Shown here in pieces: positions 8,447 to 55,779 of a stretch of 64,000 nucleotides of DNA. The DNA lies in NCBI GenBank assembly GCA_964016885.1, contig OZ024742.1, positions 267,654,001 to 267,718,000 of the forward strand. The letters run 5' to 3'. A program made the position numbers and the translations under genes. The stretch is from Eledone cirrhosa (Eukaryota). The notes beneath the pieces are model-generated. The model had not been told where the DNA came from and ran no database searches. It saw only the letters and a list, made by a program, of their open reading frames with translations. Position 1 is the first letter of the stretch; each line of letters starts with the position of its first letter.

Positions 8447-9142
8447 AGGTTGGAATAGAATGAAACGAAATTTCATTTCTCACTCTTAGTTTACAAACGG
8501 ACAAGCGAGCGTTATAATAAACGTTCGCTAAACTGATACGTACATATATATACGTGTACCTGTATGTATATATATATATATATATATATATATATATATA
8601 TATATACGTGCTACTGTGCGTCTGTATACATATATGTATGTACGTATACATACATACTTACATTTAAGTAAGTGCCGTACTAAGAGTGAGAAATGAAATT
8701 TCGTTTCATTCTATTACAACTTATCGTTTTCGGTGCGCCTGGTCGACTGAACTCACTCGATATGCAAATTAGGCTGCTCAGCCGTTAATTTTCATAAGTA
8801 AAGTATATACTTTCGAACGTTCAACAATCTGGCAGAAGGGTATACGGTGCTGACGATAGCTAACCAGCTTGAAACTAGTACATCGTTCCTGTGTCAGTGT
8901 TGAACAAAAGGGTGACGTGGTTGCCTTAACACCGTACGGTATAAATAAGGCTGTCCGTTTGTAAACAAACGGACAAAGCGAGCGTTATAATACACGTTCG
9001 CTAAACTGATACGTACATATATATATGTGTACCTGTATGTATATATATATATATATATATATATATATATATATATATATATATATATCGTGCTGCTGTA
9101 CGCCTGTATACATATATGTATGTACGTATACATACATACTTA
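8447..9142 (+). mobile_element. HHR-carrying non-autonomous element, family B (~470-bp unit, partial tandem, short inverted left arm)
   Basis: Direct repeat 8491-8650 / 8962-9142. 8447-8490 is the reverse complement of 8679-8721. Homologues lie at 20391 and 27139. Confidence 0.8.
8845..8885 (+). ncRNA. Minimal type I hammerhead ribozyme (family B)
   Basis: cggtg CUGACGA uagcu-aacc-agcuu GAAAC-UA-GUA catcg, with palindromic stem III ACUAGU. Confidence 0.85.
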
Positions 9143-9201
9143 CATATATATATATATATATATATATATATATCATATATAAGAAATATATGTATATATA
9201 T

Positions 9202-9299
9202 AATTGTTTCTACTTTAGGCACAAGGCCAGCAATTATCCCAGTGCATTACTGGAACTTTATTTTATCAACCCCGTAAGGATGAAAGGCAAAGTTAACCT
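9202..9299 (-). mobile_element. 3' fragment of tRNA-derived Nin-domain SINE
   Basis: Reverse complement matches 47705-47803. Confidence 0.8.
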
Positions 9300-9609
9300 A
9301 TTATATATATTATATATATATATATATTATATATATTATATAATATATATAATATATATATATATAATAAATATATGTAAATATATAATATATATTTCGT
9401 TTCTGAATTTGTTTAGCAAGATTCTTTATCTGAAATCGTGTGTTGAAACCGATATTGTTATACTTTGGGAGGTCATGTTGCCAATAAGAAACACACGCAC
9501 CAGTTGCTTTCACTTCAATTTAATTTATTAAATATTTATAAATTTACAAATTTATAAATTTCTGGTTGGTTGGTTGGTTCCACAACCAGATAGTTGTTTA
9601 TATATATAT

Positions 9610-51271: not shown

Positions 51272-51350
51272 ATATATATATATATATATATATATATATA
51301 TATATATATATATATATATATATATATATATATATATATATATATATATT

Positions 51351-53682
51351 AAGGATTACTCTATGAAGAATATTCCCACTCCATCCAACCATATTTACCA
51401 AATTTTTCTCCTACAAAAAGCGGAAGATGTCGTCAGACGCTTAAGATGGCGAGCCCTAACTTTTGACGGCAAAATTACAGGCACCAATAACACCTTCAAC
51501 CTGAAATCTAGAGCATACTCTCCTAAGATAACTGAACTCGCTCCTCTCGAAGCGGACCTTCTTGACTTAGTAGCTAACATTTACTTTCGCACACACTCTA
51601 ACACCTTCTAAACTAAACTTAGAAATGATATTAAGGAATTTAGGTTTTCCAATAACACATTCGTTCTTTCTGACAAGACGAATAATATTTACGAAGGCGA
51701 CATCACTACTTACAGCCACTTGGCACATAACGCTATTACCTCTAAATATAAGAATGCTAATCCTATGGCCTACCACGACATCAATACAGAAGCCAAAGGC
51801 CTTGCTGCCGCCCTTAAGGTAGATAAGAAGCTACAATACTTAGATAAGTGTGAGGCGTTTCTCGCCCTGAAGGTAGACTTTGCTTCTTATCCCACGTGTA
51901 GACTACTAAACCCGTCACGCACGGAAGTGGGACTAGTCAGTAAGGCTATAATTAGAAACATAGTTAAGTCCATTAGGACCAAGTCCAACCTGTCCCAGTG
52001 GGGGAACAGCGACTCCGTCATTCAGTGGTTTAATTCCTTCAACTTCAAAAAAGCGAAGTTCACGCAATTCGACATTGTAGATTTTTACCCGTCGATCTCA
52101 GAGACCCTGTTAAACAAAGCGTTGGACTGTGCTACCACTTACACTACCACTTACACTACCATCCATGTTTTAGACAGGGAGATCATCGCACACTGCCGGA
52201 AAACCCTCCTCTTCAACAACGGATTAGGGTAAAGAAGTCAACTACATCAGATCTATTAGATGTCTCCATGGGATCATTTGAACGGTGTTGACGTATACGA
52301 CGTGGTTGGCCTATTTATTTTAGACATATTACGTGTTAGATTCCCAGACTTCCACACGGGAATATACCGCGACGATGGCCTGACTTTATCGAGCCATAAA
52401 AGTGGTCACGCCCTGGACCGATTTAAAAAAAGACTTAATTTCTACCTTTAATGAGTTAGGACTTAGGGTAACAGTAGCTACCAACTTCTCTAGCGTAGAT
52501 TTTTTAGACATTAATTTAGACCTTCGCACACATACCTTCAGAGCCTTCCATAGGCTAAACGAAAAACTTAATTACATACACAAGGACTCATGCCAACCTC
52601 CTTTTGTTTTTAGAAACTTCGTAAATAATATCAGTACTAGAATCTCTAACCTCTCCTTTAATAAGGCTACCTTTGACAGAGCGGCACCCTACTATAACAC
52701 GACGTTAGCTAACAGCGGCTTCTCGCAACCAATTACTTACTACCCCACTAACAACAGCAGCAATAAGACAACAAAGCGTAACAATAGACAAACTGTCTGG
52801 TTCTCTCCTCCCTTCTCACTCAACGTTAAAACTAATGTAGGAAAAAAGAATTAGCCTTCTTATATCGACACTTTCCCATAGATCACAATTACCACTCCAT
52901 CTTTAACAGACACAGAGTAAAACTAGGGTACTGCTGCGCTAAGAATATGAAGGCCCACATCACCAACAGTTCTACGAGTGGCACCCCACCAGGATGCTCG
53001 CGCCGAAAGCCTGAAGCTTGTCCCCTTCAACAGCAATGCAACACACCCGCTGTAGTTTATGAATCTGTGGTCACTTCCAACAGACCAACTCAACCTCCGG
53101 ATGTCAACTCTTATGTGGGTATGGCGGAGGGCCGATTTAAGGATCGCTTCCTGAACCATCAGCCGACCTTTAGGTACTCGGACAAAACGATCATCCACGA
53201 AACTCGCAAGCCATGTGCGGTCCCTCAAGGACTCAGGTATAGACTACTCCATTCAATGGAAAGCCATCACTAAGTCCAAGCAATACGCAAGGGGCAATCC
53301 GTCTTGTGGACTGTGTATTGAAAAAAGGATAAATATTCTAACAAGATTACGCAATAGTGATTGCCTAAATTCAAGCAATGAAATCTTCTCACGTTGTCCA
53401 CATATCTGGAAATACCTCTTGATAACTACAAAGCTCCACATTGAATAACAAGATTCTAATTTTCTAATCAACTCGATCATCTTTCCGGACTTTCGCACTT
53501 ATCTCCCTCACACCTTTCGCCCGTGACTTTGCATCGCTTGGGTGAAGAGATCGTTTCTGCGTATGCGCGTTCATACAGTTGTTCTTTCTGTTCCGCATAA
53601 CCATGACCAGTACGAGCTGAAGATCCGCTAAGGTGTAACAATTGTTCTCGGTATGGTGAACTAACTGTTGTGTCACCACTTC
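51351..53682 (+). mobile_element. Near full-length decayed Naiad-type Penelope-like element (RT + C-terminal GIY-YIG)
   Basis: YSMKNIPTP..RRLRWRA N-terminus, CRLLNP, QFDIVDFYPSI, GIYRDDGL, WFSPPFS, CPL..VVY..YVGMAE..FKDR..CGLC..RCPH. Several stops and frameshifts. Confidence 0.9.
53606..53657 (+). ncRNA. Minimal hammerhead in the PLE 3' region with GAAA changed to GUAA
   Basis: cgag CUGAAGA ucc-gcua-aggu GUAAC-AAUU-GUU cucg. Confidence 0.6.
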
Positions 53683-55779
53683 TATATATATATATATATA
53701 TATATATATATATATATATATATATATATATATATATATATATATTTGCATGACCATGCCTGTTTTGTATGTTTAGATTTGATGCGTGTGGGTTAAGGAG
53801 GATCAAAGATCTAGTGATGATTCTCCATTTTATATTGTCGAATATTTTCTACCAAGCCTGCAGTAGGAAACAATTTTCAGAGTTGGTGCATAATGATATA
53901 AAACCCCAAACCACGTGGTTTCCATATGAATTGCTTTGTCACACTGCTATGTCTCTGGACGTTATTCATAGCATTTGGAATATGAAGTCTTCAATATTAT
54001 ACTTTTCAGAAAAAAATTACTTTTCCAGTATAATCTCTGATTGTGTTCTGCCAAAAGGTTACATATTAATTTAGATCAATTTAAACATGAAATTCATCTT
54101 CAAATTTATATTGACGTGTATTAGTAATATATTTAGTTCGATTATTTATTCAGTTTGCATCGTGGGAACAGAAAGATTTATCAAAGAATATATTGTGCAA
54201 CAAGTATTGTTTGGTTGTAAATATCTGTTGACATCTCAATTTTAAGACGCTTAGTTGAAAATGTCAAATATTTACTGACACCATCAAAATATATTTCAAA
54301 TAGTGAAAAGATATTTGACATTAAGAACTCAATCTGATTGAAAGTAAGATAATTTATTTGAATGGAAATTGTTGAATACATTGAATCAATATTTATTCAA
54401 GGATACACGCAATGATTTTCGTTCAAATAAATAAAAAAAAAAATACTGATCTTCGCGTCTTGTCAATGACAAGAAGGCTACAAAGTTTGATGAGGTCGGG
54501 ATTATAATTTTATAAATGCTGTCTTAGATTCAGATGTTAACGTCATAAGTCATTCCCATATATCCGGCTTAAATTAATTTCATATTTAAGAAATTATTTA
54601 TCCCTTGAAATCAGAGTGATTTTTGGAATTGATAAATAGATAAAAGAAAGTCATATAACTAGGTTGCGTAATATGAAAGAAATTCTCTCATTAAGGTATG
54701 TGTATAGGTAAGCATGCATGCCTGTATCTGCCTATTTGCGCATGCATAATTATAAATATAAATACACACATACACACACACACACACACACATACACACA
54801 CACACACACACACACACACACACATATATATATACATATATGATGGCTGCTCCCTCGTTATTGAGTATTGCCATTGCACGATATACCATTATTAATAATT
54901 ATTAATTAATTCCATCGTGCAATGCCTGTGAGTGAAGATATTTTTTAAAATGAAGAAAGACCGTGCATTGAGCCAATGGCACTCTCTCAGCGACAGCAGC
55001 TACAACTCGAAAAGAAGAAAAGATCAACATCATCGGCAACTACCGAGCCGCAGGTTTCATATCGGAGCGATCCCAGTCTCCTGAGCTTCCCCTTCTAGAA
55101 GAATTCCCTGACAATGGCTAAGCGTCCTTCAATCCCAGTGGTTTAACCGCGCGGTACATGTGTATATACATATTTACACAATTTCGGATAGCCGTTTACA
55201 CTTATGAGTTCTTCTGCCCTTTGTCAGGTTTTTTTTTGGCCTCAGGGTGTCCAAAATCAGCCTCCTCACCAAGTAAACTTGGTGGGGTTGCCAGTTTAGT
55301 CGCCAATGACCCAACCATGCGACAGGTTGTACTGGGTTACATGTTGCCAGTAGCACTCAAGAGTGACGGGACAAGAATATAAAGAAACACACACACACAC
55401 ACACACACACACATACACACACACACACACACACATATATATATATATATATATATATTGTTATACTTTGGGAGGGTCATAAACAAATTCAGAAACGATA
55501 TATATAGATATATATGTGTGTGTGTGTGTGTGTGTGTGTGTGTGTGTGTGCGTGTGCGTGTGTTTGTGTGTGTGTTTCTTTATATTCTTGTCCCGTCACT
55601 CTTGAGTGCTACTGGTAACATAGATATATATAATTATATATAATTATATATATCTACTGGTAACATTAGATATATATAATTTTGGATTTATATATATATA
55701 TATATATATATATGAAAACAAATATTAGAAAGGAAAAAGATTCTTTCAATAAAAAATGTTGAAGAGATTTTTTCATTAT

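What the first reader, a model, noticed from the sequence alone, without database searches (positions are those of the whole stretch)
8447..55500. Shared insertion grammar: two outward-facing arms, one long and one short 3' end, in (TA)n
Seen at 8447, 9394, 15063, 20391, 22067, 34368 and 55458: the left arm is antisense and the right arm is sense. One end stops at a family-specific short terminus, often at an internal ATAT that matches the target, and the other runs further (about 57-62 nt in three families, about 27 nt in the array). The Naiad fragment at 3365 has the same outward-facing arms. Established: Penelope insertions often show an inverted pseudo-LTR plus a short tail. Inference: both strands of a break in (TA)n prime cDNA at two fixed positions of the RNA, and unrelated non-coding families follow the same rule.
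Basis: partly seen in the sequence, partly recalled or inferred. Interest (0 to 1): 0.75.

Follow-up and report, generated by a model that had tools for sequence, protein, structure and literature searches.

The report
Penelope insertions primed twice, asymmetrically
Two Penelope-type retrotransposons and two small ribozyme-bearing repeats insert into TA microsatellites as two back-to-back arms, one ending at a fixed 'long' site and the other at a fixed 'short' site, which likely means one enzyme complex primes both cut DNA strands at two set positions on a single RNA, and would show how these ribozyme repeats spread.

Summary
Confirmed at all seven coordinates, and it holds in copies sampled from across this genome. 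Of 167 two-armed insertions in four families, 158 pair one long with one short end, 9 have an end elsewhere, and none is long-long or short-short. Both arms share variants, including private ones. Arm lengths are independent, junctions carry short microhomology, and fold-back is excluded.

Corrections: only two families (8447/20391, 22067) are non-coding hammerhead retrozymes. 9394/34368/55458 is the end of a Neptune-type Penelope-like element (PLE) and 15063 the end of a Hydra-type PLE. The 3365 fragment is Hydra-type, not Naiad. Tails are about 34, 57, 60 and 80 nt.

In print: head-to-head PLE arms with a tail often at one end only (PMC8557442), and two RT start sites with both strands primed in vitro (PMC11167929). 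Not found in my searches: the strict pairing, the shared template, and this footprint on retrozymes. Best model: fixed-site twin priming on one RNA, probably circular for the array. This scan reported the same pattern before on other DNA (e1-10355689, e1-9939240).

The parts
8448..8490 (-). Family A (retrozyme, ~422-nt unit) left arm, long end at 8448
8491..9145 (+). Family A right arm (>1 unit), short end; minimal type I hammerhead core at 8850
9394..9735 (-). Family B (3' end/pLTR of Neptune-type PLE) left arm, long end; includes a ~20-nt duplicated piece at the junction
9736..9997 (+). Family B right arm, short end; hammerhead-like motif near 9794-9838 (by eye; not picked up by the scan)
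15063..15127 (-). Family C (pLTR of Hydra-type PLE) left arm, short end (atypical, 5-8 nt longer than the family mode)
15128..15255 (+). Family C right arm, long end; 5' edge at the probable transcription start
18616..18922 (-). Family B arm with long end, joined directly to a different PLE (mixed-family insertion)
18923..19907 (+). Family G: 3' part of another PLE (endonuclease-like fragment and 3' UTR), ending at its modal TA-flanked site
20391..20626 (-). Family A left arm, short end
20627..21047 (+). Family A right arm, long end; hammerhead core at 20742
22067..25729 (-). Family D (310-nt retrozyme) left arm, 11.8 units, long end
25728..26939 (+). Family D right arm, 3.9 units, short end; 2-nt overlap at the junction; hammerhead cores, e.g. 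25840
27139..27745 (-). Family A one-armed copy with long end (exception: no right arm)
34368..34478 (-). Family B left arm, long end
34477..34526 (+). Family B right arm, short end
55458..55480 (-). Family B 23-nt left arm, short end
55481..55499 (+). Family B 19-nt right arm, long end; shares no sequence with the left arm, so it cannot be a fold-back
3366..4082 (-).
4083..5071 (+). Sense arm with C-terminal GIY-YIG-like frame 4117-4608 (CxCX5C, CxxC, CxH)

Best explanation
Each two-armed insertion is two reverse copies of one template joined head to head, one starting at the family's short site and one at its long site 34-80 nt further 3', likely made by a Penelope-type RT-endonuclease complex that primes both nicked target strands on a single RNA ('fixed-site twin priming'). 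Shown in the sequence: geometry, strict long+short pairing, shared variants between arms, independent arm lengths, junction microhomology, and 12-15 bp target duplications where the target is not pure TA. Inferred: staggered nicks give two 3' ends; an asymmetric (probably dimeric) complex places one on each site, helped by 2-5 nt of TA pairing; the two cDNAs extend independently, round a circular monomer for family D; host end-joining links their 3' ends and fills the second strands. Families A and D would borrow this machinery; which PLE drives them is not shown.
For: Pairing: D 40 of 40, plus 30 of 31 two-armed loci among 40 of the 63 unpaired termini fetched and 3 of 4 further loci; A 13 of 15, B 34 of 36, C 38 of 41; no L-L or S-S. 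Same template: in 46 D inserts the commonest variant is in both arms of 25 and in one arm only of none; 10 inserts carry variants seen in no other sampled insert, in both arms. At polymorphic sites, concordant/discordant counts are B 73/0 (33 discordant expected if independent), C 86/6 (46), A 41/5 (22). Two separate cDNAs: the short arm is longer in 20 of 41 D inserts and 8 of 41 have lengths no fold-back can give; the long arm does not even reach the short site in 4 of 25 B and 4 of 37 C pairs. Junctions: 32 of 46 overlap or are blunt, mean 2.5 nt versus 0.75 by chance, and 14 have filler. Only 2 of 92 arm 5' ends lie at the ribozyme cut. Target duplications in 4 of 23 non-TA blocks versus 0.15 shuffled. 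B and C are ends of PLEs with long RT-endonuclease frames. PMC11167929 (abstract, main text and part of the methods read): both strands cut and extended, two start sites bounding the tail, predicted dimer.
Against: PMC11167929 saw no difference in start site between top and bottom strands in vitro and did not test per-molecule pairing; it calls the start site non-homologous to the target, whereas 2-5 nt matches occur here. One-armed inserts exist (9 of 56 D loci). Arms are not always concordant (C 6, A 5 sites; 8 one-arm-only sites in 6 D inserts). One of 168 head-to-head junctions joins two different PLE families (window 18922), so two RNAs can be used. Sampling: A, B and C loci were best hits to window copies (young-biased); one search required the tail; one search included the palindrome centre; one search merged identical copies; 23 of 63 unpaired D termini were not fetched (3 of them had been seen). 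Pfam gave only sub-cutoff hits, none for the 786-aa frame, so clade calls rest on motifs. No RNA data.
Confidence: 0.62

Rival explanations
1. Dual priming: each subunit holds its own RNA molecule, still one long and one short site, and the arms match because both RNAs come from the same donor locus or one precursor.
For: Mixed-family insertion at 18616-19907; a few discordant arms; dual priming is proposed for L1 (PMC2837659, passages).
Against: Many D haplotypes coexist, yet arms are near-always concordant, with private variants in both arms of 10 of 46 inserts; 167 of 168 junctions are same-family. It would need one active donor per cell.
Confidence: 0.2
2. Both strands prime at the long site and one end is trimmed back to the short site when the endonuclease resolves the intermediate.
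For: PMC8557442 (passages) suggests the tail results from endonuclease-mediated resolution; genomic ends alone cannot separate priming from trimming.
Against: Two initiation sites bounding the tail were mapped directly in vitro (PMC11167929); short ends are sharp to 1-2 nt in B and C.
Confidence: 0.1
3. One cDNA (or an antisense RNA) folds back and copies itself, so the second arm is a copy of the first (self-priming, as argued in PMC3846280).
For: Explains shared variants and palindromic junctions; many C copies are near-perfect palindromes.
Against: Requires one arm nested in the other. Violated in 8 of 41 D inserts, in 10 of 25 B and 9 of 37 C pairs, and at 55458, where the arms share nothing. 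C palindromes are explained by both cDNAs running to one fixed 5' end.
Confidence: 0.04
4. Artefact or survivor bias: symmetric pairs form but are purged or mis-assembled, or the asymmetric unit is inherited whole from a master copy.
For: Long inverted repeats in (TA)n are hard to assemble; gaps lie next to some arrays; reads did not bridge the window's junction.
Against: Junctions differ at nearly every D and B locus; mixed pairs are themselves kilobase inverted repeats; 50-200 bp inserts obey the same rule; the short end recurs in 9 contigs of an independent public run.
Confidence: 0.04

Closest known systems
EN+ Penelope-like elements, Neptune and Hydra clades (PMC8557442, PMC3846280; passages read)
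   Same: [quoted passage not shown] Families B, C and the 3365 element fit.
   Different: The papers describe a tendency and a 30-40 nt tail; here the rule is near-absolute in two-armed copies (0 symmetric of 167), tails reach 57-80 nt, and both arms share one template.
Poseidon PAc in vitro (PMC11167929)
   Same: AT-rich target cut and extended on both strands; two internal RT start sites that bound the tail; predicted dimer.
   Different: No per-insertion coupling of the two sites reported; no non-coding templates; here a few nt of TA match at both sites.
Animal non-LTR retrozymes (PMC7229834 passages; bioRxiv 10.64898/2026.07.22.740005, parts 1-3 of 5 read)
   Same: Families A and D: non-coding 310-422 nt tandem units, type I hammerhead, low GC, multimers; PLEs proposed as the mobiliser.
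   Different: Those papers argue from ribozyme type, co-occurrence and pLTR similarity. 'inverted' has 0 hits in PMC7229834 and the preprint parts read give no terminus analysis. Here the arrays carry the PLE insertion footprint itself.
L1 twin priming and dual priming (PMC2837659, passages)
   Same: Two primers, two cDNAs, outward-facing 3' ends, target duplication, junction microhomology.
   Different: In L1 the second primer anneals at a variable internal site, leaving two different fragments and a deletion; here both sites are fixed, 34-80 nt apart, arms overlap, and it is the main route.

Membership tests
Neptune-type PLE (family B) | RT with C-terminal GIY-YIG in one frame | tested here: met
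   1035-aa frame at L249 with YVDD and YIGET; RVT_1 E 3.6e-4, below Pfam cut-off
Neptune-type PLE (family B) | CX2-5CxxC linker, DKG motif, internal Cys/His pairs | tested here: met
   CX4CxxC at 909, DKSG at 336, CX4C at 936, HX4H at 979; criteria. Nematis also has this linker
Neptune-type PLE (family B) | Placement in the RT phylogeny | not testable with these tools
   No reference PLE proteins on hand
Hydra-clade PLE (family C, 3365 element) | RWK-like and DKT motifs, CxCX5C linker, CxxC and CxH around the endonuclease end, C-terminal EN, about 3 kb | tested here: met
   L241 786-aa frame: RWR, DKT, CxCX5C, CxxC, CxH; period 3118 bp. Window 4117 frame: CxCX5C, CxxC, CxH
Hydra-clade PLE (family C, 3365 element) | Hammerhead in the pLTR | tested here: inconclusive
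   C folds into three stems with a non-canonical core TTGAGAA; reading it as a U3-A8 variant is recalled, activity untested; not checked for 3365
Naiad (3365 element) | N-terminal endonuclease | tested here: not met
   The endonuclease frame ends at a stop followed by the 3' end; Hydra motifs
Non-LTR retrozyme (A, D) | Type I hammerhead in each unit of a 150-450 nt tandem | tested here: met
   Core, three stems and short palindromic stem III found by script; units 422 and 310 nt. Rfam listed no hammerhead among the 150 of 153 rows shown
Non-LTR retrozyme (A, D) | Non-coding, GC below 50% | tested here: met
   Longest ATG frames 51 and 30 aa; GC about 0.34 in the array
Non-LTR retrozyme (A, D) | Self-cleavage and circular RNA in tissue | not testable with these tools
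   No RNA holder listed; indirect only: homogeneous multimers, arm ends not at the cut
PLE insertion footprint | Head-to-head arms with tail at one end | tested here: met
   158 of 167 two-armed inserts
PLE insertion footprint | Tail of 30-40 nt | tested here: inconclusive
   D 34 fits; A 57, B 60, C 80 exceed it, although B and C are PLE ends

The most novel reading that the evidence does not exclude
PLE integration is an obligately asymmetric two-primer reaction: one complex loads a single RNA and commits one target strand to the short site and the other to the long site. On a circular retrozyme RNA this gives two rolling-circle cDNAs from one molecule. That would be a general PLE mechanism across clades, and direct genomic proof that PLEs mobilise animal retrozymes.
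Probability: 0.5. Interest if true: 0.72.

Novelty: new variant of a known kind. Interest (0 to 1): 0.52.

Why it matters
How PLEs make their tandem/inverted structures and one-sided tail is stated as open in PMC8557442 and PMC11167929, and the mobiliser of animal retrozymes is only inferred. A near-exceptionless long+short rule with one shared template turns both questions into direct tests with an existing in vitro system. It also gives annotators a rule for the boundaries of these abundant repeats (18,267 and 17,703 exact motif hits for D and C).

Tried and rejected
Rfam on the window: only chance miRNA-hairpin matches below gathering score; none for the GC-rich filler in L074. First guess that the C palindrome centre is hammerhead stem II: pattern found 0, rejected. 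Second guess that C's 5' edge is a ribozyme cut: rejected, the element continues upstream and the edge lies in loop II, 29 nt after a TATA-like box. DNA search with the D unit returned 0 (common-word filter), replaced by patterns. No common RNA fold at the two sites across families. One search's regex pairing gave 7 apparent L-L/S-S rows. In 5 the printed flank is continuing element sequence; B L020 runs on into a continuation also seen at a second locus; the seventh (D L171) lies inside an arm mapped as L-S. All are internal units and were dropped. Arm-length correlation in D is weak (rho 0.33, p 0.036, n 41) and the sample is biased; not used. Sequencing runs: no RNA holder listed; Hi-C runs laid 0 reads and no contig bridged the 25728 junction: no test. 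Long/short ends of the 3365 family not callable. Literature searches for a prior description: (0 papers with Penelope + twin priming + inverted + GIY-YIG). The original twin-priming paper was not held; Arkhipova 2006 and Evgen'ev and Arkhipova 2005 were not read and may describe the tail rule in more detail. Supplements: 3 text files of PMC11167929 searched without hits, its Fig. S2 not visible; others not read.
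Full report
Observation. The window is G000:C3:267654001-267718000 of a 3.0-Gb genome; the organism was not identified. Sequence and self-BLAST show, at each of the seven named sites, an antisense left arm and a sense right arm between (TA)n runs. They belong to four families: A (8448, 20391; also a one-armed copy at 27139), B (9394, 34368, 55458; also 18616), C (15063) and D (the 310-nt array, 22067-26939). In each, one outer end is the family's short site (S) and the other its long site (L).

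What the families are. B is the 3' end of a PLE with a 1035-aa RT plus C-terminal endonuclease frame and a CX4CxxC linker, i.e. Neptune-type by motif. C is the pLTR of an intact 786-aa element with RWR, DKT, CxCX5C, CxxC and CxH, the Hydra-clade motifs listed in PMC8557442. That locus (L241) shows the textbook layout: an inverted arm with L, a partial tandem, and an S end. The 3365 element has the same Hydra motifs and a C-terminal endonuclease, so it is not a Naiad. Pfam gave only sub-cutoff hits; the clade calls rest on motifs, not a tree. A (422 nt) and D (310 nt) are non-coding tandem units with a minimal type I hammerhead, i.e. non-LTR retrozymes in the sense of PMC7229834.

Two fixed ends. 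TA-flanked 3' ends cluster at two positions: B 263-264 (45 ends) and 312-322 (42); C 63 (44) and 137-140 (48); A 364-371 and 414-426; D 273-284 and about 305-317. Tails measure 57, 60, 80 and 34 nt for A, B, C and D. Both sites carry short TA-type matches to the target. Longer internal TA runs of 10-14 nt in A and 12 nt in B are not the modal ends (alignments of A break at its internal run, so a minority of true ends there cannot be counted), and many D short ends have a 1-nt match. The sites are therefore likely set by the protein-RNA complex rather than by pairing alone.

For D, exact L and S termini were listed genome-wide (1,041 L hits; 1,588 S hits with double counting on one strand). On C1:1-170.7 Mb, 65 L and 78 S termini formed 40 outward pairs within 20 kb: 22 S-L, 18 L-S, 0 L-L, 0 S-S (Fisher p 9e-12). 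Of the 63 unpaired termini I fetched 40: 30 were mixed pairs with a slightly shifted or variant partner, 1 had a partner ending elsewhere, 7 were one-armed, 2 unresolved (classes typed by eye). Four more two-armed loci added 3 mixed and 1 other. For A, B and C, one search gave 13 of 15, 34 of 36 and 38 of 41 mixed, the rest with an end elsewhere. Total: 158 of 167 mixed, none symmetric. Caveats: A-C samples are best hits to window copies, one B query required the tail, and identical C copies were merged.

One template, two cDNAs. In 46 D inserts the two arms share their variants: the commonest is in both arms of 25 inserts and never in one arm only, and 10 inserts carry variants unique in the sample on both arms; 8 one-arm-only sites occur in 6 inserts. 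B, C and A are concordant at 73 of 73, 86 of 92 and 41 of 46 polymorphic site comparisons, against about half expected to differ. Yet neither arm is a copy of the other. The short arm is the longer in 20 of 41 D inserts, and 8 fall in a length zone that no fold-back allows. The short arm reaches further 5' in 10 of 25 B and 9 of 37 C pairs, and in 4 of each the long arm stops before the short site, as at window 55458. Internal junctions are scattered (2 of 92 arm ends at the ribozyme cut), with microhomology of mean 2.5 nt versus 0.75 by chance in 32 of 46, and filler in 14. Where the target is not pure TA, 12-15 bp duplications flank 4 of 23 blocks versus 0.15 after shuffling, which points to staggered nicks.

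Mechanism. Most likely a PLE RT-endonuclease complex nicks both strands of AT-rich DNA, sets one 3' end on S and the other on L of one RNA, extends both, and host end-joining links the two cDNA ends. That both copies can read overlapping template assumes no RNase H and strand displacement (recalled, untested). Multimeric homogeneous arms in D are most simply rolling-circle copies of a monomer circle, as proposed in PMC7229834. For C, 28 of 29 arms found as bystanders in other loci stop at or inside one 5' edge that lies 29 nt after a TATA-like box. The abundant ~197-bp C palindromes are thus probably primed at the 5'-most pLTR of transcripts that start there (inference). Against a strictly single RNA: one of 168 head-to-head junctions, at window 18922, joins a B long arm to another PLE, and a few arms are discordant.

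Against the literature. PMC3846280 and PMC8557442 (passages) describe head-to-head pLTRs, an optional 30-40 bp tail often at one end only, and (TA)n bias; they propose self-priming or endonuclease resolution. PMC11167929 (abstract, main text and part of the methods) shows cutting and extension of both strands and two start sites bounding the tail, with no strand difference and no per-molecule pairing. The 2026 preprint links retrozymes to PLEs by co-occurrence and pLTR phylogeny. My searches found no paper on strict pairing, shared template or this footprint on retrozymes, but older PLE reviews and most supplements were not seen. Two earlier notes of this scan report the same pattern. I reached my reading before that call; they agree and are not independent support.

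Verdict. A real, very regular feature. The architecture is known; its strictness, single-template origin, longer tails and presence on retrozyme arrays sharpen the PLE mechanism and make it directly testable. New variant of a known kind, interest 0.52.

Noticed in passing
window 18616-19907: Mixed-family insertion: family B long arm joined with no TA spacer to the 3' part of another PLE (family G); the only such junction among 168.
   Followed up: partly
window 26036-26345; runs X1-X20: The D unit is held at 64-100% of sampled words by 20 runs under 18 organism labels in 17 studies; X2 and X10 hold a single low-depth 340-nt circular contig. Could be related species, contamination or diet, or horizontal spread.
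   Followed up: partly
L241:3799-3910: Family C hammerhead has a non-canonical core (TTGAGAA), and its loop II holds a TATA-like box 29 nt before the fixed 5' edge of most copies: probable promoter inside the ribozyme.
   Followed up: partly
L241:3879-6236 (+); L249:1189-4293 (-): Uninterrupted 786-aa Hydra-type and 1035-aa Neptune-type frames (the latter Asn/Thr-rich at the N-terminus); Pfam finds nothing for the first.
   Followed up: partly
window 51350-53683: Long, frameshifted Hydra-type PLE (RWR, DKT motifs) in (TA)n with no inverted arm seen.
   Followed up: no
window 19907-20160; L278, L281, L283, L286, L291, L300: Family G has an internal (TA)n followed by a ~33-nt tail, so its short end falls in its own TA run.
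   Followed up: partly
L074:1566-1760; L176:1350-1621: Foreign filler at arm junctions (about 190 nt GC-rich; 272 nt), possibly captured cellular RNA; no Rfam match for L074.
   Followed up: partly
window 21200-21275 and 21835-21905; 55341-55621: Further inverted pairs around TA runs that look like other families of the same kind or nested insertions.
   Followed up: no
window 38-3258 and 10522-13668: Two 78%-identical LINE copies (endonuclease + RT, minus strand); other RT elements at 41.3-43.6 kb and 60.6-64 kb.
   Followed up: no
L094:800-1000: Another hammerhead-bearing family shares the last ~10 nt of family C's long end, as a small head-to-head pair.
   Followed up: no
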